Part shown: in pieces, positions 3,663 through 36,595 of the stretch
How positions within the stretch are numbered: position 1 is the first letter of the stretch
Layout of the letters: every line of letters begins with the position of its first letter
Source of the DNA: a virus
Reading direction: 5' to 3' (one strand)
Length of the DNA: 40,660 nucleotides
UHGV virus genome: UHGV-0383422
Notes under the pieces: generated by a model
The model's database searches: none
Told to the model about the DNA's origin: nothing
The model's input: the letters and a program-made list of their open reading frames with translations, nothing else
Position numbers and translations under genes: made by a program

Positions 3663-3689
3663 CCCGCAAAATATTGCGGGCTTTTTTTT
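3663..3689 (+). terminator. intrinsic-terminator-like hairpin oriented for plus-strand transcription, at the tailspike 3' end
   Basis: Stem CCCGCAA/TTGCGGG followed by eight T on the plus strand; on the minus strand the hairpin is preceded, not followed, by the T/A run. Confidence 0.45.
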
Positions 3690-6600
3690 AACGTTCTTCC
3701 AGAGACTGAATCCGCTCTTTTATCTTATCCATTTCTCTGCGCTGCCATGCTGCCTCGATATAGAATAAGAGATCAGGTCTGACCCCCCATCTAGATCCTG
3801 CTGGCGTTATTTCAACGCGCTCAATGATGTCTTCCATTACCATCACTGGATTATCATCCTCATCAACAATGATGCTCCCGTCATTATCAGTCAGCGGCAT
3901 TTCCCTTTGGCCAGTAATGACGTCATCATATACTGCGGGATAATCGTCATAGCAAAGAAAGGCATAGCGGCATGTTGTGCTTTCTTCTTCCATGAGTCCG
4001 TGAGAAATAAGAACATCACGAAGTTGCTGCGCGATTACACCATGATGTATCCTCGCCCCTTCTTCCCCCTTTATAGCGACAGCGTTCAGCCATTTATAAG
4101 CGATATACCTGACGTCACCCCAGGCATCCAGCAATGCTTCGTCAGGAGAGACCGGCTCTGTCTTTAATGTTCCGTCACTGGTAACCACAGGATTGGAGCC
4201 AAGATAAACTGTCGAGAACCTGTTTCCCGGACCACCAAGAGCATTTACATTATCAAGATAAGGTTTAACATCTCCGTTCTCAAAAAGATGTTCGAGTGCG
4301 TTATATACCGCGCGACGTGGAGTACTGCTTCCGGAACCATGCAACGTTATCATTGCACCATCTGCTGAAGACGTTGTTTCACCGCCGCTAACGATTAATC
4401 TCTGAGCGGTAACATCATCAGACGGTACTTTCTTCGCAATAATGGCGTAATTACCCTCAAGTTTGACTTCCGCGCGAACTTGTCCTGATGTACCTGCATG
4501 GACAGTCAGTGACTGGACGGCAACATCATCTGTGAAATCAACGGGTACAGGAACCGTCCTCACGCCTGACGTCGACATAAAAGTAGGAAGCGTTCTGTTA
4601 GGAGTGGCTCCGTAGACAAAATCCCTTGAAACAAATTCTTCCTGTTTAATTTTCACCCTGAAACAATACAAATCAGCCGGGTGACCATCGTGAACATAAG
4701 GATATTTTCTGTTGTTATCCCCTATGCTCCATGGGTTTAGAAAGTCTTCCCCACCGAAAATGTAGTACAGCCAGTTGTCTTTGATACAAACTGAACCAAC
4801 ACCAACTGCAGAGTTAACTATTCCGCCCTGATAAATCTGATCAGTAACATTAACCCACTCTACATTATCCAGACTCCACTCATTGACGTTAACTCTGGTC
4901 ATAAATGTTCTTGGATAATTTCCTGCATAACGGTTATCAGGTTCTCCTCCTTCCCACTCACCAAATGCGCGCTCACTGCCAAAAATAATCAGCTCATCGC
5001 CAACTTTGGCAAAAGGAAGGTTTGAGTGATGAACATTATTTGGGAAGCGAAGAGAATTCCATGATGTACCTAAATCAGAGCTTCTGTGCAATGAACTACC
5101 GGGTTGAGTACTTAATGTCCCCCTGGTCGTCAGATACAGAATGCCATCATAATATTTTACACATGGCTCAGATGCATTCGCCTCATATTCTGCAGGTATG
5201 CGTCTGCGAACAAAGCTACCAGGAGAACCGAAAGCATCAGAGAAATAGAGTATCCCAAGCTCGCGTGGACCAATATCACCATTATGGTAGCCAACAGCAA
5301 AACTGTTATCGCTAATCGTCGCAAAACTGTGAATCTCAGTAACAGGAGTGCTTCCGTCAACAAAAGAAGGAATAGTTCCAAGACTGGTTTTTCTCCATGG
5401 TGACGAGTGAAATGATGTACCAAAACTCCAGTATCTACCCTCGTTATTCTGATCCACATCCTGGGTATTTTGCGTCGTAACTGTAAAAGTATTTTTATCA
5501 ATAACAGTAGTCACCGTCATATTCCCGGTAACACCTGTAACACCAGAGTTTGAGAAGTTGACAAAATCACCAGCAAATAATCCGTGATCAGTAATGCGAA
5601 TATAAGCGACTTGCTGATTTGCTGCTTTCGTTATACCACCATAAGCGCGAAGGCTGCGACTCATTGGGCGATCCCACAACTCTGCAACCTGCAGTTTATT
5701 TCCGCTCACGGTCCGCGTCTCAATTACAGCAAAAAGGCGATTTCTGACAACCCCCATACTCATGCAGTGATAGTTAACTGTGGGATAGTTTTCATGTAAA
5801 TCTGTAAGCCATTCCGGCGTTGTCCAGGTCTTCCCGTCATCTCCTGAGCGAACCCATGCAACATGGAGGTTATTTACACCATGGCGGTCTCCAGCCATAA
5901 AAGGCGCATAGATGACATTGTCATATACAAACGTTTTATCCTGCGTCCAGGCGTTGTACCACGGTGTATCTGTAATTTTAAATAACTCTCCCTGGATAAA
6001 ATCTTCAGAAGCATAAAAAAGAGGCTGGCCCGGTATTCTCTCAAATAAAAAACGAGCATTTTTAAATCGACTGACATCCGGAAGAGTTGATACTTTAAAA
6101 GTAAGCCCTAATCCGTCAATTTTATAACCTGGAGATGAGGCTTCAAGGCACGCGCTTATTGCAGTGGAATCGTCATTTATACCATCACCAACAGCTCCAA
6201 AATCTTTGGGGCTAATAGCATCACGCATTTTATCCTGGAACGTTCGGTACACAGCCCCAGAACCATACTGAATAAACCAACCAAAACCACCAACAACCCC
6301 GGCGATTGCAGCATCGACATAATTACGCATTGAGCGATTATTTACAGCGTCCTGCTCAAATGATGGATCTGCAAGGTTAGAAATTTTGTTTTGCTTTGCA
6401 TCGTAATATTTTGCAAGCAAAGATGGTTTCATCAATGCACGTCTGAACCACCCAAAACATTGCTGGATCAGCATCGTCAGGTAGTCAAAGGCATCTTCAT
6501 GCACTTCGGGGAAAAATTTTCCCTGATTGCGAAGGTCTGTCTCCTGCACTACATCAAGCACACGATCTATCGTAATTCGCCATCCAGTAGCAAGCGGAGA

Positions 6601-6807
6601 CGGAAGAACCACAGAACCGCCACTATAAGTGCCCGCCCCAGTTACCGTATAACCGGTATCCAGAACCAATTCTGTTACGTTTCCGTTCAGGTCAGACACC
6701 TGAACAACCAGGTCTGATTTTCTGAAAATTCGAAAAGTATACGGAAACGATGTCGTAACGCCGTTACCAGTGTATTCGTTGTGGTCAACTTCGGTTGAGA
6801 CCGTCAT
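3688..6807 (-). CDS. tailspike, endosialidase-like (endo-N-acetylneuraminidase) with C-terminal intramolecular chaperone domain
   Basis: 1039 aa; N-terminal particle-binding-like domain; sialidase Asp-boxes (SGDDGKTW, SSDLGTSW); C-terminal region (LGSNPVVTSDG...RIHHGVIAQQLRD...) resembles self-cleaving chaperone domains of endosialidase tailspikes (recollection, not searched). Confidence 0.8.
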   Translation of the reverse strand: MTVSTEVDHNEYTGNGVTTSFPYTFRIFRKSDLVVQVSDLNGNVTELVLDTGYTVTGAGTYSGGSVVLPSPLATGWRITIDRVLDVVQETDLRNQGKFFPEVHEDAFDYLTMLIQQCFGWFRRALMKPSLLAKYYDAKQNKISNLADPSFEQDAVNNRSMRNYVDAAIAGVVGGFGWFIQYGSGAVYRTFQDKMRDAISPKDFGAVGDGINDDSTAISACLEASSPGYKIDGLGLTFKVSTLPDVSRFKNARFLFERIPGQPLFYASEDFIQGELFKITDTPWYNAWTQDKTFVYDNVIYAPFMAGDRHGVNNLHVAWVRSGDDGKTWTTPEWLTDLHENYPTVNYHCMSMGVVRNRLFAVIETRTVSGNKLQVAELWDRPMSRSLRAYGGITKAANQQVAYIRITDHGLFAGDFVNFSNSGVTGVTGNMTVTTVIDKNTFTVTTQNTQDVDQNNEGRYWSFGTSFHSSPWRKTSLGTIPSFVDGSTPVTEIHSFATISDNSFAVGYHNGDIGPRELGILYFSDAFGSPGSFVRRRIPAEYEANASEPCVKYYDGILYLTTRGTLSTQPGSSLHRSSDLGTSWNSLRFPNNVHHSNLPFAKVGDELIIFGSERAFGEWEGGEPDNRYAGNYPRTFMTRVNVNEWSLDNVEWVNVTDQIYQGGIVNSAVGVGSVCIKDNWLYYIFGGEDFLNPWSIGDNNRKYPYVHDGHPADLYCFRVKIKQEEFVSRDFVYGATPNRTLPTFMSTSGVRTVPVPVDFTDDVAVQSLTVHAGTSGQVRAEVKLEGNYAIIAKKVPSDDVTAQRLIVSGGETTSSADGAMITLHGSGSSTPRRAVYNALEHLFENGDVKPYLDNVNALGGPGNRFSTVYLGSNPVVTSDGTLKTEPVSPDEALLDAWGDVRYIAYKWLNAVAIKGEEGARIHHGVIAQQLRDVLISHGLMEEESTTCRYAFLCYDDYPAVYDDVITGQREMPLTDNDGSIIVDEDDNPVMVMEDIIERVEITPAGSRWGVRPDLLFYIEAAWQRREMDKIKERIQSLEER

Positions 6808-6910
6808 GTTAAATCTCCAGATAGTCGCAGCACCCGTTGCGCCGCATATCTGGTTATTCTATTACCTGGAAAACCACATATGGATAGAAAGGCTGTAAAT
6901 ACGAATAGAT

Positions 6911-6927
6911 ATTACCTTTCAGGTAAT
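6911..6927. promoter_or_regulatory. operator-like palindrome ATTACCT-TTC-AGGTAAT (perfect 7-3-7)
   Basis: In the divergent intergenic region between tailspike and the LexA-controlled gene. Confidence 0.5.
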
Positions 6928-6963
6928 TTGCAAAACGTGCTGGATAGCAAACAAATTATTTGA

Positions 6964-6983
6964 TACTGTATAAATATACAGTT
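6964..6983 (+). promoter_or_regulatory. LexA (SOS) box TACTGTATAAATATACAGTT
   Basis: Perfect CTGT-N8-ACAG (6966-6981) with AT-rich spacer, about 20 bp upstream of the start codon at 7003; -35-like TTGATA at 6960-6965. Confidence 0.8.
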
Positions 6984-7002
6984 ATTGCATGGAGAAGATA
7001 AG

Positions 7003-7260
7003 ATGCAGCAGTATCACTATCCACTGGAAGACGGATTTACCGAAAGGATTCACACGCCGGGAGGCGTCAGGTCACTGGTGGAGGGATCGCACTTGATGAA
7101 ATTACTCCGGGATCTCGATAAGGATGGATTTAATGTCGATGGCCCACTTGCCGAACTGACTGCACTGATTAACTACGTCACCAGCTCACAGATGTCTATG
7201 CAGGATCTGCAAACACATCTCGACTATTGTGCCGAACAATTACGAAAACAAACCCGGTAA
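7003..7260 (+). CDS. small SOS-controlled antirepressor-like protein
   Basis: 85 aa from ATG at 7003 with GGAGA Shine-Dalgarno; LexA box upstream; clearly homologous to the C-terminal approx 80 aa of the Bro-N protein at 8409-9119. Confidence 0.7.
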   Translation: MQQYHYPLEDGFTERIHTPGGVRSLVEGSHLMKLLRDLDKDGFNVDGPLAELTALINYVTSSQMSMQDLQTHLDYCAEQLRKQTR

Positions 7261-7266
7261 ATTTAA

Positions 7267-7284
7267 AGGCCGCAAGAGCGGCCT
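7267..7284. terminator. hairpin between convergent genes (possible bidirectional terminator)
   Basis: Stem AGGCCGC/GCGGCCT with AAGA loop; T-rich flanks on both sides. Confidence 0.45.
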
Positions 7285-8011
7285 ATCGTTTCGCTTTGTG
7301 CTCGTCCCAGCACGTTTTGCACCATGCCATTAAGCCGTCCGCATTTTGATTATTAGGGTAAAAGCTGGTCCGTTTTCTGCGGACATTACAAATTGGGCAC
7401 CACTTCATATGGCGTGTATTCTTTGGGCCATCGAGACACCTTGCACACCACTTAGTCAATCCATCTGGATTTTTTGACGATTTCCGGAATTTGTCATATG
7501 GAAGGTTTATTCTGCATCGCAAACACTGCTTGCGGCCACTTGAAACTCTGTTAGCTGATTCTTCTTTTGGCGGCGATACAGAAGGTATTCTTGCTGGCTC
7601 TGATACTGCCTGAGGTGCTTTTTTAGATGACTGAGACGATATGTCATCACCAGGGAATCTTCCATGATATGCCGGACGCATTGATACTCCAGGTGGAAGC
7701 TCAGCTGTAAACGGCTTTGGCTGAATCAGTTGCCTCTCTTTTGCTAACTCCTGCTGTTTACAATATGTCTGGATTACCGCACTATCATAAGCAGGAGGTG
7801 CGGAAATATTAGGCGCATTACCTCCAGTTTTTTGAAACTGAGTAGAGGTGTGTTCTATCACCTGTGTACGATTAATCGTTATCTCCCCATCTTCGGTCTT
7901 TATCGTTTTGTTATGATTAACGACCGTACGATCAGAGATCTTAGTCTTGTTCTGGTTGATAACGTAAATAATCACCGCAACCACACCAACAACTATCCAG
8001 AAAACTTCCAT
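7283..8011 (-). CDS. membrane-anchored protein with C-terminal tandem Cys4 zinc-ribbon repeats (function unknown)
   Basis: 242 aa; N-terminal transmembrane helix; two approx 30-aa repeats each CxxC...DGL..WC..C; GAGGAA Shine-Dalgarno. Confidence 0.65.
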   Translation of the reverse strand: MEVFWIVVGVVAVIIYVINQNKTKISDRTVVNHNKTIKTEDGEITINRTQVIEHTSTQFQKTGGNAPNISAPPAYDSAVIQTYCKQQELAKERQLIQPKPFTAELPPGVSMRPAYHGRFPGDDISSQSSKKAPQAVSEPARIPSVSPPKEESANRVSSGRKQCLRCRINLPYDKFRKSSKNPDGLTKWCARCLDGPKNTRHMKWCPICNVRRKRTSFYPNNQNADGLMAWCKTCWDEHKAKR

Positions 8012-8030
8012 TGCTTTTCCTCACAATAAC

Positions 8031-8047
8031 ATTACCTTAAAGGTAAT
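8031..8047. promoter_or_regulatory. operator-like palindrome ATTACCT-TAA-AGGTAAT (perfect)
   Basis: 20-36 bp upstream of the start codon of the 7283-8011 gene; a weaker copy ATTACCT-TTG-CGGTAAA lies at 8124-8140. Confidence 0.5.
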
Positions 8048-8408
8048 ATCTTGCTTTCAGGTGATCAAGCGTTAAACGCCACCAACCAAATACGGTTGAT
8101 TTTGATATTTCTCCGCGTTTATCATTACCTTTGCGGTAAATTTACATCGCACTCCTCTTGTGCCATAGTAATCGGGCACTGGCAAAATCCAGTGCCGGGA
8201 TTGGCGTCCCGGGTTACTAAGTGGCGCATACCACGCCAGACGTGGTTTTTTTATGCGTTAAGCACAGCTATATCCGAATTATGGTGGGCTGGGCAGGGGT
8301 CCGAAAGGACGCCGGTACCACTTAGGCCGGTACGCCAACCTTGTCCAGTTCACCACCAGTAATTGGCGTTGCGGTGGTGATTAAAATCACTAAGTGGAGA
8401 TAACCACC

Positions 8409-9119
8409 ATGGCTAATGCTCAAACTTCCATCTTCAAATTTGAATCTGTTAACCCTATCCGTTCCATCATTATCGATGGCCAACCATGGTTTGTAGCCCA
8501 AGACGTTTGTAGTGCGCTGCGTATCCAAAACGTCACCCAAGCACTTGAAAAACTGGATGATGATGAAAGGTCTATGTTCAACATAGGGCATGAACATCGT
8601 GCAATTTTTGACAGCCGAGTAAAAGAGATCAACATCATCTCCGAGTCAGGCCTCTACACACTGATCCTCCGCTGCCGCGACGCAGTGACACCAGGCACTA
8701 TCCCCTACCGCTTTCGTAAATGGGTTACGGGTGAGGTTCTTCCTCAGATCCGCCGCACCGGAAGCTACATTAAAAACTCGCTCCCGCAGGAAGAACGCAT
8801 AAAGATGGTTGCCGACCAGGTGGCCAACGCCACGGCGTCAGCAGTAATGCAGGCGATGAAGATAGAGAACAAAACCTACAGCGCCCCACTGAATCCCGGC
8901 TACCGCAGCCTGATTCATTCGCCGTCTGGTGTTCTCGGCCTGACGGAGAACTCACTGCTGATGAATCTGCTGAACCAGTTACAGGACGACGGGCACGACG
9001 TATCGGGCGCGGCGGCGGAGCTGACCACCATGTTCTGCTACATCGTCGGTGTGAGCAAATGCCTGCGTGATATCCAGACCCACGCGGAATACATCAACGA
9101 CAAGGCAGGGTTCTTCTGA
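8409..9119 (+). CDS. Bro-N domain antirepressor-like protein
   Basis: 236 aa from ATG at 8409 with GGAGA Shine-Dalgarno; N-terminal Bro-N/KilA-N-like region; C-terminal domain homologous to the 7003-7260 product. Confidence 0.7.
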   Translation: MANAQTSIFKFESVNPIRSIIIDGQPWFVAQDVCSALRIQNVTQALEKLDDDERSMFNIGHEHRAIFDSRVKEINIISESGLYTLILRCRDAVTPGTIPYRFRKWVTGEVLPQIRRTGSYIKNSLPQEERIKMVADQVANATASAVMQAMKIENKTYSAPLNPGYRSLIHSPSGVLGLTENSLLMNLLNQLQDDGHDVSGAAAELTTMFCYIVGVSKCLRDIQTHAEYINDKAGFF

Positions 9120-9126
9120 CGGGCGG

Positions 9127-9152
9127 TGGCACAGGGATGTGCCTTTAAATAA
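9127..9152 (+). terminator. rho-independent terminator after the Bro-N gene
   Basis: Stem GGCACA/TGTGCC with GGGA loop followed by TTTAAATAATT. Confidence 0.55.
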
Positions 9153-9190
9153 TTCTGTACAGATTGCAGACTGTGGGTGAATAGCGTACT

Positions 9191-9207
9191 ATTACCTTAA
9201 AGGTAAA
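9191..9207. promoter_or_regulatory. operator-like palindrome ATTACCT-TAA-AGGTAAA
   Basis: Immediately upstream of the GGAGG Shine-Dalgarno and ATG (9219) of the 55-aa gene. Confidence 0.5.
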
Positions 9208-9218
9208 GGAGGCGCGAT

Positions 9219-9386
9219 ATGACAGCGTTGAAAAATCGTACTCAGCACAATGAACAAGCCAAGCAATGCTGGGATGTCATTGGAAAAGTTATGCTTGGCC
9301 GCGCAAGCAAAGAGCGCGACAAGGATATGGTTTACCAGACAGGAACATCTTTCAGCGACTTCAAGGCGGCATTTCGCTCCAAATAG
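9219..9386 (+). CDS. hypothetical small protein (55 aa)
   Basis: ATG with strong AAAGGAGG Shine-Dalgarno; hydrophilic; not in the supplied track (below 60 aa); overlaps the N-terminal extension of listed ORF 9266-9847, which I reject. Confidence 0.55.
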   Translation: MTALKNRTQHNEQAKQCWDVIGKVMLGRASKERDKDMVYQTGTSFSDFKAAFRSK

Positions 9387-9406
9387 AAGCACATCAGGAG
9401 TTTTCC

Positions 9407-9847
9407 TTGAAGTTTAACATTAGAATATCTAATAGTTTTCTACATGGGGAAAGCAACACCCCTTTCGCTGTAGACGGACCTTTCCTTACTGATGATGAAA
9501 TAAAAATCATACAAAGTTTTTTAGAGGATGTTGCCAATGGAAGGGCGCTTGTTGGAAAAAACAAGCCCTCGTGGGTTGATGATAACCATGATAAAATTCC
9601 CGGCTCAGACAATTATGAGCAAGAGAATTATTGGCATTATCATTGTGGGCCAACATGGTATCCAAACACATTTAAGAATTATACCATTAACTTAAATTTC
9701 AACCCTGGCGGAAGGCATTCTAATGAATGCATTCATTATGCAAAAAATGATAATGAAATTGTCATTGTTGGATTTTCAAGAGAACACATACCTTTCCTTT
9801 CATCAGATGGAAACAACAATCCGCTTTTTAATGATGAAGAAGAATAG
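9407..9847 (+). CDS. hypothetical protein, AT-rich accessory gene (about 146 aa)
   Basis: Same frame as listed ORF 9266-9847, but start placed at in-frame TTG 9407 six nt after AGGAG; no in-frame ATG in the AT-rich part; sharp drop in GC from about 9400; terminator follows. Confidence 0.5.
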   Translation: MKFNIRISNSFLHGESNTPFAVDGPFLTDDEIKIIQSFLEDVANGRALVGKNKPSWVDDNHDKIPGSDNYEQENYWHYHCGPTWYPNTFKNYTINLNFNPGGRHSNECIHYAKNDNEIVIVGFSREHIPFLSSDGNNNPLFNDEEE

Positions 9848-9867
9848 CCCGCGCTGCGGGCTTTTTT
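9847..9867 (+). terminator. rho-independent terminator
   Basis: Stem GCCCGC/GCGGGC with GCT loop followed by TTTTTT. Confidence 0.75.
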
Positions 9868-9939
9868 GTGGACGAAACAAAAGTCAGTGCTACACTCATT
9901 GACGCCACATTGAGGTGGCTTATAGATGGAAATTTCACA

Positions 9940-10101
9940 ATGAAAAAAGCATTTGCTGCACTGTTCGTTTTGTTGTCTCTGGTAGCTTCAACTCAGGCCT
10001 TTGCCGGTCGTTGTCAGCACGACAGCGACACTGCTGCTGACGGCTCCCGCTGCGGTGGGCGTTCTGCGGACTCCCGTCCGGGCGGCGGTGGCATTCGTTA
10101 A
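9940..10101 (+). CDS. small secreted peptide (signal peptide plus approx 31-aa Cys-containing mature part)
   Basis: MKKAFAALFVLLSLVASTQAFA signal-like N-terminus, then GRCQHDSDTAADGSRCGG...; internal Met chosen because the longer form overlaps the upstream terminator. Confidence 0.45.
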   Translation: MKKAFAALFVLLSLVASTQAFAGRCQHDSDTAADGSRCGGRSADSRPGGGGIR

Positions 10102-10123
10102 AAACAAGGCCGCGAAAGCGGCC
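10096..10123 (-). terminator. hairpin terminator for the minus-strand structural operon
   Basis: Stem GGCCGC/GCGGCC with GAAA loop (10108-10123); T-run on the minus strand. Confidence 0.55.
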
Positions 10124-10124
10124 T

Positions 10125-10136
10125 GTGACATGTCAC
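10125..10136. repeat. 12-bp perfect palindrome GTGACATGTCAC (copy 1 of 3)
   Basis: Exact palindrome between convergent accessory genes and the ejection operon. Confidence 0.6.
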
Positions 10137-10143
10137 GCTCACG

Positions 10144-10284
10144 TTATGACAAGCCTATGTACCCTGCTACACCAGATAATATCATAATAACTGCAACAGC
10201 AAATTCGCCATCGTCAATGATACATTTACGGTTCATAACGCCAAGTGCAACAAGCGCAAACACAACAAGAATAAAAGCAATCAT
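10144..10284 (-). CDS. small hydrophobic membrane peptide (46 aa)
   Basis: MIAFILVVFALVALGVMNRKCIIDDGEFAVAVIMILSGVAGYIGLS; AAGGATGAG Shine-Dalgarno; just downstream of the 824-aa ejection-protein gene; not in supplied track. Confidence 0.45.
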   Translation of the reverse strand: MIAFILVVFALVALGVMNRKCIIDDGEFAVAVIMILSGVAGYIGLS

Positions 10285-10293
10285 TTCTCATCC

Positions 10294-12768
10294 TTATTGC
10301 GGAGTGACATCCTGTGGTCGCCACCAGTATGTCTGGTTAAACTCTTTCTTCGAACGTTGCTCCATTTTACGCAAATAACCTGGTGAAAAATACTCCTGCA
10401 TCTGGTTAAAGATCATGTGATCGAGAGCCGCCTTCAAGTACCAGAGATTCGCACCTGGCATCAGACCTTTCCCCAGCTTAACCAGATCACCACCAGTCTG
10501 CTCACTCTTCCCTTCCACAGCATTTAACGGTATGCCCTGAGCAATCTTCACTACGTCATCAACCAGACCAGCTACCGGGCCAAGCATCGACGCCAGCGCG
10601 CCGCTTCCGTACCTAGTGTGATCTGACAATAAAAAGTCACCGTAAAGGCCAAGACCACCACCTTTCAGTAGAGCACCAAGCCAAAATTTAGCAGCATCTT
10701 CTCCTGTCATCTCGCGAGGATTACGACCAGACGCAAGGTCGTTAAGTTGCTGCGACAAAGCGCCAAGAATGGTCGTACTGGCAATAAACGTCGCAATATA
10801 TGCCGCACGCCCACCAGCAGACGGCATACCCATAGCGCGTGACCAGTGACGCATAACCACCGAGATAGGGAACGATTTAAACAGGAAAACACTTCTCGTT
10901 AATTCACCTTTCCATGTTCCACGCTGAATACCAGAACCGGTTATCAGTTGCTCACGTGCTCCCGGTGTAATAACAGCCATATCAACTTCTTCAGTTACGG
11001 CACCGAGCAGTTTACGCATTGCCTCAAATTTCACGCGTTCAGGCTCACCAAGATGTTTAACTGCTGAATCAGGGATACGCATAATGCTTTCCGGTGTCAG
11101 CATCGTATTATTACCGTTCCCCCAGTCCTCCTGTTTCGCCAGCTTCCATACGCTCCAGTCTGTGTCAGTAATCCCTTTGCTTTTCAGGATACGAAAATCA
11201 GAGTCATCGAGGCTACGAAGGTCTGGTGTACGTGACACTACTTCTCCCAGGCTTCCCATCATGGTTACGCCATAGGCGCGCTTGTGCGCATCTGACCATG
11301 CTGTAAGCCCACTGGCACGCATTACCGCCGTTGCCGCCCAACGAGACACTGACGGCCCCATATTATCCATCGCCCAGCGGTTAACGCTGCCAAGTAGAGA
11401 TTCCATCGCCAGACCAGCGCGGCGCGCCCGCGCAAGTTCTGTACGGTTCGTTGGGTCCATAGCTTCAAGCTGGTTGCGGAATAACTGGTTCATTGGAAGG
11501 TTGGTAACCTTCGCAGACAGATACATGGTTCCAAGATCAGAGAACGATGACAGCAACGCGGATCCGAGTCTGCTGGCAACCAGCCAGTTGCGGATATTGT
11601 CAGACCATCGCGCGATGTGCGGATTCGCTACAGGCTGTGTCTTTCCGGAAATAAAGTTGTACAGATTCTCTGTGTTGTTCGCCAGCCGCTCGACTTTACC
11701 GGTTTTACTCGGGTTAGCTGTTGCCGTTTCTGCCTTCACCTGATCAAGAAGAGAGCGGAAAACATGATCGGGGTTTGGGCCATATGTTTCCACCAGTGCA
11801 ATATCTTTACTGATACCTTCCAGGTGACCGACCATGATTTCCCATAGAGAGCGATCGCCATAAAGTTGCTGATATTGCAGATAGGAATCTGCATCTTTGA
11901 AATGTATCTGTCGTGATGCATTACCACGGTTAGCACGTGCGCCGGAAATTCGCATTCCGGTATCAGTAAGCTTATTCAGCCCACCAGTAGCGATCGTGTT
12001 ATAAGCCTCTCCAAGAAATGAAGACAACTCGGCATCGTTCATCAGTTGTCCATCGGCTCGGATATAATATTTGCGATCCAGCTTACCTATAACATCGCTA
12101 ACCCACTTATCCTTTGATACTGCCCCAACCTTTTCCATAGAATGATGTTGAGGGATCCCCCAGTTTTCGAGATAGCCAATGTCCCCACCAGCATCATTAA
12201 ACCGGCGGCGCAGCAGCTCTGTAACTTCTCTCCACGCCTTAGCACCGTTTCTTGCTTTAGCATTGCCAGTATTTTGCCCCCGCATTTCATATACCAGGTC
12301 ACGTACGCCCGCTTCATCTTCAAACAGACCAAAAAAGCGAGGATCAACTGCTTCGAATGCCTCCTGCAATTGACTCAATGCATAATCACGGGTGGCTTTT
12401 GTTCTGGATTCAACAGAGAGGAAATTAGATTTACCGTCTGCATTAAAAGCTATAGTACGGTTAAGAGCGCCAAGTTTCCCATCAGCCCCTTGATAGCTAT
12501 TGATAAATTTATCCAATCTCTGACGCGCGGCTATAGTGAGAGCCACACGACGTTTCTTTAATGCCGCTTCTCGCTGTAATTCTTCAGATGCCAATTGTGC
12601 TGCTCGATATAGCCGCTCTGATTCGGAAAGTTGTCTCCACGACATCGGGTCATCACGAGCAATGGAGCGCATATTTCGATAAATGCGGTCTTCAATGTTC
12701 TGTATTTCTCGCGCCGTTAACGTGCGCTGCGCCGCCTGCTGGACCGCTTGTATACATTCCTGTCTCAT
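10294..12768 (-). CDS. internal virion / DNA-ejection protein (large)
   Basis: 824 aa; last of three consecutive large genes at the distal end of the morphogenesis operon. Confidence 0.6.
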   Translation of the reverse strand: MRQECIQAVQQAAQRTLTAREIQNIEDRIYRNMRSIARDDPMSWRQLSESERLYRAAQLASEELQREAALKKRRVALTIAARQRLDKFINSYQGADGKLGALNRTIAFNADGKSNFLSVESRTKATRDYALSQLQEAFEAVDPRFFGLFEDEAGVRDLVYEMRGQNTGNAKARNGAKAWREVTELLRRRFNDAGGDIGYLENWGIPQHHSMEKVGAVSKDKWVSDVIGKLDRKYYIRADGQLMNDAELSSFLGEAYNTIATGGLNKLTDTGMRISGARANRGNASRQIHFKDADSYLQYQQLYGDRSLWEIMVGHLEGISKDIALVETYGPNPDHVFRSLLDQVKAETATANPSKTGKVERLANNTENLYNFISGKTQPVANPHIARWSDNIRNWLVASRLGSALLSSFSDLGTMYLSAKVTNLPMNQLFRNQLEAMDPTNRTELARARRAGLAMESLLGSVNRWAMDNMGPSVSRWAATAVMRASGLTAWSDAHKRAYGVTMMGSLGEVVSRTPDLRSLDDSDFRILKSKGITDTDWSVWKLAKQEDWGNGNNTMLTPESIMRIPDSAVKHLGEPERVKFEAMRKLLGAVTEEVDMAVITPGAREQLITGSGIQRGTWKGELTRSVFLFKSFPISVVMRHWSRAMGMPSAGGRAAYIATFIASTTILGALSQQLNDLASGRNPREMTGEDAAKFWLGALLKGGGLGLYGDFLLSDHTRYGSGALASMLGPVAGLVDDVVKIAQGIPLNAVEGKSEQTGGDLVKLGKGLMPGANLWYLKAALDHMIFNQMQEYFSPGYLRKMEQRSKKEFNQTYWWRPQDVTPQ

Positions 12769-22350: not shown

Positions 22351-22370
22351 GTGGGTCTGTTACGACCCAC
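22351..22370 (-). other. stem-loop after major capsid gene (possible attenuator or stability element)
   Basis: Stem GTGGGTC/GACCCAC; no T-run; followed by GGAGAAAG Shine-Dalgarno of next gene. Confidence 0.4.
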
Positions 22371-26706: not shown

Positions 26707-26783
26707 GTGGCATTAGCTCAGTTGGACAGAGCAACCGCCTTCTAAGCGGTTGGTCGCAGGTTCGAATCCTGCATGCCACGCCA
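26707..26783 (+). tRNA. tRNA-Arg (anticodon UCU)
   Basis: Folded by hand: acceptor GTGGCAT/ATGCCAC, D-arm GCTC/GAGC, anticodon stem ACCGC/GCGGT with loop CTTCTAA (anticodon TCT), T-arm GCAGG-TTCGAAT-CCTGC, discriminator G and CCA. Confidence 0.9.
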
Positions 26784-33711: not shown

Positions 33712-34488
33712 TTACTTGATAAATCCTGCCGCCTTTCCCCGCCTGTATTCCTCCATCAGCCACTGCGCCGGTGTTATTCCCCCAAGGGTGGCGGCGTTAG
33801 GCATGCACCCGAAACTTCGCCCTGGTGGATGGTAAACGTCTCTCCCTGTGTCCGGAGGTGTACTCATGGGCTCTGGCTTTGCCTGTATGCTGATCACCGG
33901 ATCGGGTATCTGCTGTCCGGAAGCCACCTTTTTCGCCCAATCATCGAGCAGCCTGCGCGCGTGTTTCTCAACCTCACTCTCGCTAAGCTGGCGCTGATAC
34001 ATTGCACGACGGGTATCACATACGACCCAGTACATAACCGGATGCCGCCACGGGAATCTTTCGGGACCACCAGGATATAAACTTTTTTCCTTGCTGTACC
34101 GGTGAAACTCCGCCATCACATCGTCAATGGTGACGCCAAGAACCATCTTGCTGTCTTTGCACCACTTGATGAATTGCCCTGGCGACGGCCAGAACGGAGA
34201 TTCACTGGCGCGGGCGTGGCGCATACCAGCGTTAACCTGTTCCATTGTAGTGATCCCATTCTCCAGAAACGCAAGCATCCATTGCTTACGGAATTCATTA
34301 AGTTTGTTCTGCTCCCTTATGGTCGAAACGCTTGCAGGAAATGCAGCCTGTAACTGGACAAATAGTTCATTGAAAATTCTAGCAACCTGCTCCTTTTTGC
34401 CATTGCTGTCACGCCGCTCTTCATGCACAGCAACACCATGCTCACGTAAGCGATCGTACTCATTGAGAAGTTCTGGAGTTGATTTCAT
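33712..34488 (-). CDS. replication protein (P-like helicase-loader candidate)
   Basis: 258 aa, downstream of and overlapping the initiator-like gene; no Walker A; assignment by position. Confidence 0.5.
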   Translation of the reverse strand: MKSTPELLNEYDRLREHGVAVHEERRDSNGKKEQVARIFNELFVQLQAAFPASVSTIREQNKLNEFRKQWMLAFLENGITTMEQVNAGMRHARASESPFWPSPGQFIKWCKDSKMVLGVTIDDVMAEFHRYSKEKSLYPGGPERFPWRHPVMYWVVCDTRRAMYQRQLSESEVEKHARRLLDDWAKKVASGQQIPDPVISIQAKPEPMSTPPDTGRDVYHPPGRSFGCMPNAATLGGITPAQWLMEEYRRGKAAGFIK

Positions 34489-35891: not shown

Positions 35892-35956
35892 TTCACCCAT
35901 AAGGTAACAAAAATCAAGGATAGTTACCTATGAGGTGCATTTACCTGTTGGGTAAT
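35892..35956. promoter_or_regulatory. operator cluster: three palindromes of the ATTACCT-N3-AGGTAAT family at the cro/cI divergent region
   Basis: 35892-35908 TTCACCC-ATA-AGGTAAC; 35923-35939 GTTACCT-ATG-AGGTGCA; 35940-35956 TTTACCT-GTT-GGGTAAT. Confidence 0.6.
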
Positions 35957-36010: not shown

Positions 36011-36595
36011 ATGAAAAGTATCCAGGACGTCCGCAGGCAAAATCTCAACGACTTGATCGACCGTGAATTCAATGGTGTTCAGACGCGGATGGCAGAAAAA
36101 CTTGGAACTCAGGCAAATCTGGTAAACCGCTGGGCTCTTGGCAAGAAGGTTATCGGCGACCAGGTTGCACGAAAAATTGAAGCTGCCGCCAATAAACCCC
36201 GTAACTGGCTTGATATTGATCGTTCGCTTTCTCAGGAGGGTTTTCAGCCTGTCGGCCCGAGCGATATAGGTCAGCTGGCGGCTCACAACCTGGAACGCTG
36301 GATGAGCGAAAGCCGCGACCTTTCAACACAGGGAAAACTTCACCGCGCATCCGGCGTCGCCCAGGTGACAATCAGCCGCCTGTTAAACAATGAGGTCAGC
36401 GTTTCCATTTCCACCCTGGAGAATGTTGCATCCGCATTCGGGCGTCACGGATATGAACTACTGATTCACCCGCACGACCCTGCGACTATCAACTATGACC
36501 GCTCACGCTACGCATTGTTACCCGAAACCGAGAAAGCAAAGATCGAAAGTTACATTGAATTTGTCATCAACCAGAACGAAAAAAGCAAACAATAA
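36011..36595 (+). CDS. CI-like repressor candidate (HTH; no LexA-type self-cleavage domain evident)
   Basis: 194 aa; HTH-like segments; no Ser-Lys peptidase motif; divergent from cro-like gene; own terminator. Confidence 0.55.
   Translation: MKSIQDVRRQNLNDLIDREFNGVQTRMAEKLGTQANLVNRWALGKKVIGDQVARKIEAAANKPRNWLDIDRSLSQEGFQPVGPSDIGQLAAHNLERWMSESRDLSTQGKLHRASGVAQVTISRLLNNEVSVSISTLENVASAFGRHGYELLIHPHDPATINYDRSRYALLPETEKAKIESYIEFVINQNEKSKQ

What the first reader, a model, noticed from the sequence alone, without database searches (positions are those of the whole stretch)
6911..9119. LexA-box-controlled small antirepressor paralogous to the C-terminus of the Bro-N protein, paired with a repressor lacking a cleavage domain
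A perfect SOS box (CTGT-N8-ACAG, 6966-6981) lies about 20 bp before the 85-aa gene 7003-7260. Its product aligns along its length with the last approx 80 residues of the Bro-N protein 8409-9119 (shared PL..G, IH.P.GV, LM.LL, DG..V.G..AELT, D.QTH..Y). The CI-like protein at 36011-36595 shows no LexA-type Ser-Lys self-cleavage module. Together this predicts induction by a LexA-controlled antirepressor rather than repressor autocleavage. Having a second, larger paralog fused to a Bro-N DNA-binding domain and not preceded by a LexA box is an unusual two-tier arrangement.
Basis: partly seen in the sequence, partly recalled or inferred. Interest (0 to 1): 0.6.

Follow-up and report, generated by a model that had tools for sequence, protein, structure and literature searches.

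The report
Known LexA-controlled antirepressor plus RNA-switched paralog

Summary
There is a near-consensus LexA box at 6964-6983, and the 85-aa product of 7003-7260 aligns with the last ~80 residues of the Bro-N protein (42% identity, E 2e-15). The repressor has no protease domain.

The core is not new. The window is a phiV10/epsilon15-like (Uetakevirus) phage. The small protein is 87% identical to Ant of Salmonella phage SPC32H, and the CI-like protein is a full-length homolog of SPC32H Rep. Both are in the Rep-Ant co-crystal PDB 5D50. The LexA box matches the SPC32H box, whose single-base change distinguishes the variant SPC32N.

The Bro-N paralog is not unregulated. Its 240-nt leader holds an IsrK-like sRNA (8176-8252) and a C4 antisense RNA (8277-8360), both above Rfam gathering scores. 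The C4 loops pair perfectly with two target sets, one covering the Bro-N ribosome-binding site. RNA and targets co-vary without mismatch in seven phages. A repressor-type operator abuts the promoter.

The phage therefore carries one repressor-binding module twice. One copy answers to LexA, for SOS induction. The other answers to a P1/P7 immI-like or Gifsy-1 isrK-like RNA switch, probably for anti-immunity. That combination is a modest new variant of known parts.

The parts
6911..6927 (.). Palindrome ATTACCTTTCAGGTAAT, a presumed Rep/Cro-type operator between the divergent tailspike and ant genes
   Evidence: TTACCT-N3-AGGTAA with up to 2 mismatches occurs 16 times in the window against 0.94 expected. 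The site is conserved at the same place in SPC32H, phiV10 and TL-2011b. Protein binding is inferred, not shown.
6964..6983 (.). LexA (SOS) box TACTGTATAAATATACAGTT over the ant promoter region
   Evidence: It aligns with the SPC32H box. The SPC32H/SPC32N difference is a C-to-A change in the ACAG arm, homologous to window position 6980.
7003..7260 (+). ant: 85-aa antirepressor, ortholog of SPC32H Ant
   Evidence: phmmer against PDB hits 5d50_E 'Anti-repressor protein', E 4.1e-47. It is 75/86 identical to SPC32H Ant. It matches phrog_450. Its position next to the tailspike is the same as SPC32H ant.
7267..7284 (.). GC-rich hairpin just after ant, a terminator-like site shared with the convergent 242-aa gene
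   Evidence: (scored on the minus strand) and the sequence.
8124..8140 (.). Second operator-type palindrome ATTACCTTTGCGGTAAA, directly abutting the -35 hexamer of the leader promoter
   Evidence: The half-sites TTACC/GGTAA are invariant in six phages (alignment A2).
8141..8169 (+). Promoter-like TTTACA-17-CATAGT with an upstream TG; the predicted start near 8176 coincides with position 1 of the isrK model
   Evidence: The -10 region is invariant in A2. The isrK model starts at 8176.
8176..8252 (+). IsrK-like sRNA/leader carrying decoy target sites b1 (8201-8207) and a1 (8217-8224), ending in an intrinsic terminator (8230-8252)
   Evidence: Rfam RF01394 scores 67.7 bits against a gathering score of 50. 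RF03163 c4-a1b1 scores 44.1 bits against 46.7. Terminator. Complementarity.
8277..8360 (+). C4-type antisense RNA; a' loop CCACTTAG at 8318-8325, b' ACGCCAA at 8332-8338
   Evidence: Rfam RF01695 scores 66 bits against a gathering score of 45. The consensus fold places a' in a hairpin loop and b' in a single-stranded stretch.
8363..8397 (+). Target sites b2 (8363-8369, TTGGCGT) and a2 (8390-8397, CTAAGTGG); a2 overlaps the Shine-Dalgarno GGAG (8396-8399) of the Bro-N gene
   Evidence: Pairing has no mismatch here or in six related phages, and RNA and targets change together.
8409..9119 (+). Bro-N::Ant-like protein (236 aa): Bro-N domain at residues 17-112, Ant-like domain at residues 155-231 (nt 8871-9101)
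   Evidence: Pfam Bro-N. The only PDB hit is 5d50_E, residues 155-231, E 3e-13. BLASTP to ant gives E 2e-15. It is 81% identical to ZX5 ORF4 and nearly identical from residue 76 onward. ZX5 ORF4 reduced lysogeny when overexpressed (PMC9782041).
35893..35955 (.). Three operator-type palindromes in the intergenic region between the cro-like gene and rep
   Evidence: SPC32H has a syntenic triple cluster at 34390-34451.
36011..36595 (+). rep: non-cleavable two-domain repressor, homolog of SPC32H Rep
   Evidence: phmmer against PDB hits 5d50_A 'Repressor', E 3.5e-42, over residues 1-190. No S24 domain. Identity to SPC32H Rep is 54% in residues 1-70 and 40% in residues 91-194.

Best explanation
The window is a phiV10/epsilon15-like temperate podophage of E. 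coli that runs the SPC32H-type lytic switch.

1. Rep (36011-36595) cannot self-cleave. It holds the phage silent from TTACC-N5-GGTAA operators.
2. Host LexA sits on the SOS box at 6964-6983 and keeps ant (7003-7260) off.
3. DNA damage removes LexA. Ant is then made, binds Rep and strips it from DNA. This is inferred from orthology to the characterised and crystallised SPC32H system.
4. The Bro-N protein (8409-9119) carries a second, diverged copy of the whole Ant module as its C-terminal domain, so it is most likely a second antirepressor for the same Rep.
5. That protein is the payload of a P1/P7 immI-like RNA switch. A promoter abutted by a Rep-type operator starts a leader near 8176. Most transcripts would end at the terminator as an IsrK-like sRNA carrying decoy sites a1/b1.
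6. Read-through transcripts yield a C4 antisense RNA. Its a'/b' sequences pair with a2/b2 and cover the Bro-N ribosome-binding site, blocking translation in a lysogen.
7. Expression is expected in two situations. One is just after infection, before C4 accumulates, including from a superinfecting phage whose targets do not match the resident C4. The other is when the IsrK-like decoy titrates C4.

Basis of each part: the sequence homologies, RNA-family matches, complementarity and covariation are shown here. The protein-protein binding, the operator-Rep assignment, RNA processing and the timing of expression are inferred.
For: Identity of the phage and of the ant/rep pair:
- The region is 92-97% identical to TL-2011b, HEMP4, ZX5 and phiV10.
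- Ant hits 5d50_E at E 4e-47. Rep hits 5d50_A at E 3.5e-42 over its full length.
- GenBank names these genes ant and rep in SPC32H, at the same genomic positions.

LexA control:
- The ant upstream region, including the LexA box and the palindrome, aligns with SPC32H.
- The SPC32N mutation falls in that box.
- The mechanism is summarised in PMC7380047 and PMC9638917.
- Rep has no S24 domain.

Paralogy:
-.

Link between the Ant domain and this Rep type:
- All 32 phage records with an Ant-like domain also encode an SPC32H-type Rep.
- The Ant domain family is small: 63 representatives among 1.84 billion proteins.
- Where it is fused, it sits C-terminal to the usual antirepressor N-terminal modules: Bro-N, AntA, Rha or ORF6N.

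RNA switch:
- The isrK and C4 matches exceed the Rfam gathering scores.
- The same pair lies upstream of the Bro-N::Ant gene in all six related loci that have the gene. It is absent from SPC32H, which lacks the gene.
- a'/a1/a2 and b'/b1/b2 pair with zero mismatches in 7 of 7 phages, across at least four specificity types.
- a2 overlaps the Shine-Dalgarno sequence.
- The promoter and operator are invariant in alignment A2.

Function of the Bro-N protein and precedents:
- Overexpressing the ZX5 ortholog cut lysogen titre from 1e9 to 1e6 and repressor transcription by 75% (PMC9782041; orthology).
- P1 Ant, C4 and C1 control are described in PMC8198154. Gifsy-1 isrK-anrP is described in PMC4825925.
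Against: - No experiment exists on this phage. Ant-Rep binding is inferred across a Rep that is only 40-54% identical to the crystallised one, while Ant is 87% identical.
- Nothing shows that the C-terminal domain of the Bro-N protein contacts Rep rather than only oligomerising. SPC32H Ant is a tetramer.
- My structure model of the Bro-N protein was too poor to use (pLDDT 43).
- The ZX5 experiment used GST-fusion overexpression during infection. It did not test binding, and its authors did not consider the small Ant.
- In phiV10 the Ant-like domain is split by a frameshift, so the second antirepressor is dispensable in at least one viable phage.
- The assignment of the palindromes to Rep rests on position and enrichment only.
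- The P1 icd gene and the Gifsy-1 orf45 coupling ORF are absent here, so translational control may differ in detail from both models.
Confidence: 0.72

Rival explanations
1. The Ant-like C-terminal domain of the Bro-N protein is only an oligomerisation scaffold. The protein would then do something other than antagonise Rep, for example act as a DNA-binding regulator or host-takeover factor through Bro-N.
For: SPC32H Ant is a tetramer (PMC9638917), so part of the conserved surface serves self-assembly. The paralogs share only 42% identity. Bro-N proteins have diverse, poorly defined roles (PMC9782041). phiV10 tolerates a frameshift in this domain.
Against: The domain co-occurs strictly with SPC32H-type Rep in the phage collection. 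It is attached to four different N-terminal modules typical of antirepressors. The ZX5 ortholog lowers lysogeny 1000-fold and lowers repressor transcription. It also sits behind the RNA switch that guards antirepressors in P1/P7 and Gifsy-1.
Confidence: 0.13
2. The Bro-N::Ant protein is a real antirepressor, but it is aimed mainly at the Rep variants of other resident prophages. It would then serve cross-talk or anti-immunity in trans, not act on its own Rep, leaving the two paralogs with different targets.
For: The paralogs are diverged (42% identity). The small Ant stays 87% conserved across phages whose Reps differ by about 60%. Antirepressor cross-talk between prophages is documented in Salmonella (PMC3121763). 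C4 specificity differs between phages with 99% identical Rep, which fits superinfection contests.
Against: ZX5 ORF4 affected ZX5 itself. Nothing in the sequence shows distinct specificities. Residues invariant across both groups (Y4, P7, H17, G21, D41-G42, E51, Y58, T71-H72) suggest a shared surface.
Confidence: 0.12
3. The SOS box is fortuitous, and the phage is induced in the classical way by RecA-stimulated repressor cleavage.
For: None beyond the general commonness of that mechanism.
Against: The box matches 18 of 20 consensus positions and is unique in the window. It is conserved across Salmonella and E. coli relatives. It is the site of the SPC32N mutation. Rep has no S24 module and is homologous to the SPC32H repressor, cited among the antirepressor-inactivated repressors.
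Confidence: 0.02

Closest known systems
Salmonella phage SPC32H Rep-Ant-LexA switch (Kim & Ryu 2013; Kim et al. 2016; PDB 5D50, 5D4Z)
   Same: The ant (87% identity) and rep (about 43% identity, full length) genes are orthologous and sit at the same genomic positions. They share the same LexA box and the same palindrome upstream of ant, and belong to the same phage genus.
   Different: SPC32H has no Bro-N::Ant paralog and no isrK/C4 module. Its ant is followed directly by the membrane-protein and injection genes. The Rep here is strongly diverged.
Phage P1/P7 immI operon (c4 antisense RNA - icd - ant1/2)
   Same: A C4-family RNA is made from the leader of the antirepressor transcript. Its a'/b' loops pair with an upstream (a1/b1) and a downstream (a2/b2) site, the latter over a ribosome-binding site. 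The promoter lies next to an operator of the primary-repressor type. Specificity changes by co-variation of RNA and targets.
   Different: There is no icd gene, so a2 covers the antirepressor's own ribosome-binding site. An intrinsic terminator follows a1/b1, giving the IsrK form. The antirepressor protein is Bro-N plus an SPC32H-type Ant domain; whether it is related to P1 Ant was not tested. The host phage is an integrating podophage, not a plasmid prophage.
Gifsy-1 isrK - orf45 (STnc1160) - anrP locus (Hershko-Shalev et al. 2016)
   Same: An isrK-family sRNA with its own terminator is followed by read-through into a processed RNA and an antirepressor-like gene that is transcribed but translationally silent. 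Gifsy prophages also carry a separate LexA-controlled small antirepressor, so they too have two tiers.
   Different: There is no orf45-type coupling ORF in the window; the equivalent frame stops after 14 codons. In Gifsy-1 the two antirepressors are not reported to share a domain. Here they are paralogous.
Escherichia phage vB_EcoP_ZX5 ORF4 'anti-repressor' (Li et al. 2022)
   Same: It is a near-identical phage, and its ORF4 is the ortholog of 8409-9119 (81% overall, nearly identical from residue 76). It has the same isrK/C4 leader. Overexpression shifted the phage away from lysogeny.
   Different: That paper treats ORF4 as the only antirepressor. It annotates the small ant as hypothetical and does not mention LexA, SPC32H or the RNAs. 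ZX5 carries the phiV10-type a' sequence, which differs from the window's at 2 nt.
P22 immI (mnt, arc, sar RNA, ant) and coliphage 186 Tum
   Same: P22 has a secondary antirepressor kept silent in the lysogen partly by an antisense RNA. Phage 186 has a LexA-repressed antirepressor that inactivates a non-cleavable repressor.
   Different: The regulatory RNAs differ, and no sequence relation of the proteins to P22 Ant or 186 Tum was detected or tested here. P22 C2 is itself cleavable.

Membership tests
SPC32H-type Ant (small LexA-controlled antirepressor) | Sequence homology over the whole ~86-aa protein to the crystallised Ant | tested here: met
   5d50_E, E 4.1e-47, residues 2-84; 75/86 identical.
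SPC32H-type Ant (small LexA-controlled antirepressor) | LexA box overlapping the ant promoter region | tested here: met
   The 20-mer has 2 mismatches to consensus and is unique in the window. It aligns with the SPC32H box, which carries the SPC32N mutation. The exact -35/-10 hexamers could not be fixed by the consensus scan.
SPC32H-type Ant (small LexA-controlled antirepressor) | Binds and inactivates the cognate Rep | not testable with these tools
   Inferred from orthology only. The Rep C-terminal domain is 40% identical to the crystallised one.
SPC32H-type Rep (non-cleavable repressor) | Full-length homology to Rep, and absence of an S24 self-cleavage domain | tested here: met
   5d50_A, E 3.5e-42, residues 1-190. 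Pfam gives HTH families only.
SPC32H-type Rep (non-cleavable repressor) | Binds palindromic operators at the rep/cro region | tested here: inconclusive
   TTACC-N5-GGTAA is enriched 16 against 0.94 expected and clustered three-fold between cro and rep, here and in SPC32H. Which protein binds it is not shown.
P1/P7 immI C4 antisense RNA system | C4 RNA with the family's sequence and structure | tested here: met
   RF01695, 66 bits against a gathering score of 45. The fold has compensatory pairs.
P1/P7 immI C4 antisense RNA system | a'/b' complementary to a1/b1 upstream and a2/b2 downstream, the latter over a ribosome-binding site | tested here: met
   8/8 and 7/7 Watson-Crick pairs at both target sets. 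Zero mismatches in 7 phages, with co-variation. a2 overlaps GGAG at 8396-8399.
P1/P7 immI C4 antisense RNA system | icd gene between c4 and ant, with ant expression coupled to it | tested here: not met
   Only 48 nt separate C4 from the Bro-N ATG. No ORF ends at the Bro-N start.
P1/P7 immI C4 antisense RNA system | Downstream gene is an antirepressor of the primary repressor | tested here: inconclusive
   The C-terminal domain is homologous to SPC32H Ant, and the ZX5 ortholog reduces lysogeny. Binding was not tested.
Gifsy-1 isrK locus | isrK-family sRNA ending in an intrinsic terminator, upstream of an antirepressor-like gene | tested here: met
   RF01394, 67.7 bits against a gathering score of 50. 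The terminator at 8230-8252 is followed by a T run.
Gifsy-1 isrK locus | orf45-type upstream ORF translationally coupled to the antirepressor gene | tested here: not met
   The frame starting at ATG 8282 stops after 14 codons (sequence). No ORF of at least 20 codons ends at the Bro-N start. ZX5 and phiV10-type relatives do have a 37-codon ORF there, annotated 'ash family protein'.
Bro-N domain proteins | Pfam PF02498 match above the gathering score | tested here: met
   71.4 bits against 25.6, residues 17-112.

The most novel reading that the evidence does not exclude
Uetakevirus-type podophages have a bipartite immunity like P1/P7, built from one repressor-binding module used twice. A stand-alone Ant is wired to LexA for SOS induction. 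A Bro-N-fused Ant is wired to a C4/IsrK RNA switch for anti-immunity.

The window's C4 specificity (CCACUUAG) differs from that of phiV10, TL-2011b and ZX5 (CCUUUUAG), although their Reps are 99% or more identical. These phages would therefore be heteroimmune through the RNA alone.

The stand-alone Ant would also show that, in the large class of shuffled Bro-N/AntA/Rha/ORF6N antirepressors, the variable C-terminal domain is the repressor-recognition part.
Probability: 0.45. Interest if true: 0.45.

Novelty: new member of a known kind. Interest (0 to 1): 0.3.

Why it matters
For annotation, the small gene is labelled 'hypothetical protein' in most E. coli records. It should be called ant, the SPC32H-type LexA-controlled antirepressor. 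The RNAs in the Bro-N leader are unannotated, or are covered by a spurious 'ash family protein' CDS.

For biology, about 10% of complete E. coli genomes carry at least part of this region: 534 of 5426 have a match, and 107 have nearly the whole arrangement. Predicting when these prophages induce, and which of them can superinfect each other's lysogens, depends on recognising both inputs.

The pair of paralogs also offers a clean way to ask what the Bro-N domain adds to a minimal antirepressor. None of this overturns existing models.

Tried and rejected
- Papers not held: Kim & Ryu 2013 (PMC3807360) and Kim et al. 2016 (PMC4983836) could not be read. Their content is used only through citing papers, GenBank annotation, PDB entries and my recollection of the abstracts.
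- Wrong palindrome spacing: my first search used N5 between 7-mers and found only chance-level matches. The correct TTACCT-N3-AGGTAA search followed.
- Structure model: the AlphaFold model of the Bro-N protein from a 19-sequence alignment was poor (pLDDT 43, pTM 0.28). I ran no fold search on it and drew no structural argument.
- NCBIfam and PADLOC gave nothing for Ant, the Bro-N protein or the neighbouring accessory genes.
- Weak hits dismissed as chance: Pfam DUF724 on Ant (17.6 bits against 38.4) and Trp_leader at 9763-9869 (21.5 bits against 41).
- The word-indexed homolog search with the small Ant returned only stand-alone ~85-aa proteins. The fusions appeared only with the exhaustive profile search.
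- Other LexA candidates: the CTGT-N8-ACAG matches at 22357 and 26899 are at chance frequency and far from the 20-mer consensus.
- The consensus promoter scan did not give a convincing -35/-10 for ant. I did not assign one.
Full report
**What is in the sequence.**
- A CTGT-N8-ACAG motif lies at 6966-6981.
- The 20-mer at 6964-6983, TACTGTATAAATATACAGTT, differs from the E. coli LexA consensus at two positions. It is the only site in the 40.6-kb window within three mismatches, and none appeared in 100 shuffles.
- It ends 21 bp before the ATG of an 85-codon gene at 7003-7260.
- That product aligns without gaps to residues 155-228 of the 236-aa protein encoded at 8409-9119 (31/74 identical, E 2e-15).
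- The N-terminus of the larger protein is a Pfam Bro-N domain.
- The protein from 36011-36595 has HTH-type matches only and no S24 peptidase module.

**What the phage is.**
- The region is 92-97% identical to Escherichia phages TL-2011b, HEMP4, vB_EcoP_ZX5, phiv142-3 and phiV10, the last three filed under the genus Uetakevirus.
- The tailspike at 3688-6807 has the same length and position as the ZX5 tail-fibre gene.
- The phiV10/ZX5 attP core occurs once, at 1457-1473, next to the integrase gene.

**The small gene and the repressor are a known, solved system.**
- A search of PDB sequences with the 85-aa protein returns one hit: chain E of 5D50, 'Anti-repressor protein', E 4e-47.
- The CI-like protein returns chain A of 5D50 and 5D4Z, 'Repressor', over its full length, E 3.5e-42.
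- These are Ant and Rep of Salmonella phage SPC32H, whose GenBank record names the genes ant and rep at the same map positions.
- The literature I could reach cites Kim & Ryu (2013) for LexA-controlled antirepression, in which the antirepressor inactivates the repressor by protein-protein contact (PMC7380047).
- It also states that the Ant tetramer binds two Rep dimers and breaks the DNA-binding Rep tetramer (PMC9638917).
- I could not open the two primary papers.
- The ant upstream region of the window aligns with that of SPC32H, including the LexA box and a palindrome 37 bp upstream of it.
- The variant phage SPC32N differs from SPC32H in this region by a C-to-A change in the ACAG arm of that box. 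From memory of the 2013 abstract, this is the mutation that makes Ant constitutive.

One caveat applies. Ant is 87% identical to the SPC32H protein, whereas Rep is only 54% identical in residues 1-70 and 40% in residues 91-194. The interaction in this phage is therefore inferred, not shown. Phage PAS61 has a Rep 99.5% identical to the window's and only the small Ant. That fits the small Ant being sufficient for this Rep type.

**The larger paralog has its own control module.** An Rfam scan of 6700-10300 found three matches in the 240-nt leader of the Bro-N gene. The first two also pass in the whole-window gathering-threshold scan.

| Rfam family | Coordinates | Score (bits) | Gathering score |
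|---|---|---|---|
| isrK (RF01394) | 8176-8252 | 67.7 | 50 |
| C4 antisense RNA (RF01695) | 8277-8360 | 66 | 45 |
| c4-a1b1 target motif (RF03163) | 8163-8215 | 44.1 | 46.7 |

- The C4 hairpin loop CCACTTAG (8318-8325) is exactly complementary to CTAAGTGG at 8217-8224 and at 8390-8397.
- The adjacent single-stranded ACGCCAA (8332-8338) is complementary to TTGGCGT at 8201-8207 and at 8363-8369.
- The downstream a2 site overlaps the GGAG Shine-Dalgarno sequence (8396-8399) of the Bro-N ATG at 8409.
- The upstream pair of sites lies inside the IsrK-like RNA, which ends in a hairpin followed by a T run at 8230-8252.
- A promoter-like TTTACA-17-CATAGT with an upstream TG (8141-8169) would start transcription near 8176, which is position 1 of the isrK model.

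**Comparative support.**
- The same isrK-plus-C4 pair lies upstream of the Bro-N::Ant gene in phiV10, TL-2011b, ZX5, Enterobacter phage Tyrion and two Klebsiella phages. It is absent from SPC32H, which lacks that gene.
- In all seven phages the cognate a'/a1/a2 and b'/b1/b2 sets pair with no mismatch.
- The sequences themselves differ. a' is CCACTTAG, CCTTTTAG, CCGTTTAG or CCTTTGTAG. b' is ACGCCAA, AGACCAA or GTCTCAA.
- Three-way compensated change is strong evidence that the pairing is under selection.
- The window's a' differs at two positions from that of phiV10, TL-2011b and ZX5, although their Reps are 99-99.5% identical.
- This resembles P1 and P7, which, from my knowledge of Citron & Schuster 1990 (cited), differ in C4 specificity.

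**The palindromes.**
- TTACCT-N3-AGGTAA with up to two mismatches occurs 16 times against 0.94 expected.
- Within the finding the sites are at 6912 (between tailspike and ant), 8032 (before the 242-aa minus-strand gene), 8125 (abutting the -35 of the leader promoter) and 9192 (before the next plus-strand genes).
- Three more cluster between the cro-like gene and rep, at 35893-35955.
- SPC32H shows the same enrichment (18 against 0.81) and the same syntenic clusters.
- I read these as operators of Rep, and probably also of the Cro-like protein. That assignment is positional inference only.
- If it is right, the leader promoter is under the primary repressor as well as the RNA, as is the P1 immI operon (PMC8198154).

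**What the Bro-N protein probably does.**
- Its only PDB relative by sequence is SPC32H Ant (residues 155-231, E 3e-13).
- In 50,697 phage records the Ant-like domain occurs in 32, and every one of them also encodes an SPC32H-type Rep.
- An exhaustive profile search found only 63 representatives among 1.84 billion proteins. Most are stand-alone proteins of about 85-95 aa.
- The fused forms carry Bro-N, AntA, Phage_pRha or ORF6N at the N-terminus. These are the interchangeable N-terminal modules of phage antirepressor-like proteins.
- The ZX5 ortholog is 81% identical overall and nearly identical from residue 76. When overexpressed it reduced lysogen titre from 1e9 to 1e6 and repressor transcription by 75% (PMC9782041). 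That paper did not notice the small Ant, LexA or the RNAs.

Taken together, the protein is most likely a second antirepressor against the same Rep. It would be silenced in the lysogen by C4. It could be expressed early after infection, or when the IsrK-like decoy titrates C4, as IsrK does for AnrP in Gifsy-1 (PMC4825925).

**Differences from the models.**
- There is no icd gene as in P1 and no orf45-type coupling ORF as in Gifsy-1. The frame that forms a 37-codon ORF in ZX5, annotated 'ash family protein', stops after 14 codons here.
- In Tyrion and the Klebsiella phages, ant, the RNA module and the Bro-N gene lie in tandem.
- In the window a 242-aa minus-strand gene has been inserted between ant and the RNA module.
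- In phiV10 the Ant-like domain is split by a frameshift, so the second tier is dispensable there.

**Verdict.** The finding is real and well read, but its core is already known at atomic resolution in a congeneric phage. The paralogy is genuine, and I found no paper in the searchable library that describes it. The second tier is not uncontrolled, however. It is governed by a known class of RNA switch, and a LexA tier plus an IsrK-controlled tier coexist in Gifsy-1. I rate it a new member of known kinds with a modest new combination, interest 0.3.

Noticed in passing
window 1309, 6912, 8032, 8125, 9192, 26370, 33598, 33660, 35893, 35924, 35941, 36653, 36715: A phage-wide palindrome, TTACC-N5-GGTAA, occurs 16 times against 0.94 expected. 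It sits in almost every intergenic or promoter region, including each transcription unit of the accessory island. SPC32H has the same motif at syntenic places. It is probably the Rep/Cro operator set.
   Followed up: partly
window 8318-8325 versus L001, L002, L009: The window's C4 a' loop, together with both of its targets, differs by two compensated substitutions from phiV10, TL-2011b and ZX5, although Rep is 99% or more identical. This predicts RNA-based heteroimmunity between otherwise homoimmune phages.
   Followed up: partly
L009 2456-2569 (ZX5); window 8282-8326: In ZX5 a CDS annotated 'ash family protein' lies on top of the C4 RNA. In the window the same frame stops after 14 codons at the TAG inside the a' loop. 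The CDS call is therefore likely spurious, or at least not conserved.
   Followed up: partly
L001 3274-3953 (phiV10 p23 + p22): In phiV10 and O157 typing phages 9 and 10, the Bro-N::Ant gene is split into two ORFs by a frameshift inside the Ant-like domain.
   Followed up: no
window 7003-7260 versus 36011-36595: Ant is 87% identical to SPC32H Ant, while its presumed target Rep is only 40-54% identical. The antirepressor is far more conserved than the repressor it is supposed to recognise.
   Followed up: partly
window 7283-8011 (minus strand): A 242-aa protein with an N-terminal hydrophobic segment and two C-terminal Cys-rich segments that match endonuclease VII / Stc1-like zinc-ribbon profiles (phrog_6762, function unknown). 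An operator-type palindrome lies 21 nt upstream. The gene is absent from SPC32H, Tyrion and the Klebsiella phages, and is annotated only as a misc_feature in TL-2011b.
   Followed up: no
window 9219-10101: Three small accessory genes of unknown function lie behind an operator-type palindrome: a 55-aa ORF with a strong AGGAGG Shine-Dalgarno sequence, a phrog_5954 protein (about 9410-9847), and a small Gly/Cys-rich protein starting at ATG 9940 with a hydrophobic, signal-peptide-like N-terminus (by eye, not tested). None has PADLOC or NCBIfam hits.
   Followed up: no
L002 6926-6993 (TL-2011b): An Rfam sar RNA match (RF00262, 44.8 bits against a gathering score of 43), the P22 immI antisense RNA, occurs in a relative. 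It lies in a segment with no counterpart in the window.
   Followed up: no
window 26707-26783 and 1457-1473: A tRNA-Arg(TCT) gene lies among the structural genes, as in SPC32H. A single copy of the phiV10/ZX5 attP core ATTGAGTGGGAATGATT lies beside the integrase gene. The window therefore shows only one att copy, so it is either a free phage genome or a prophage stretch that includes only one junction.
   Followed up: no
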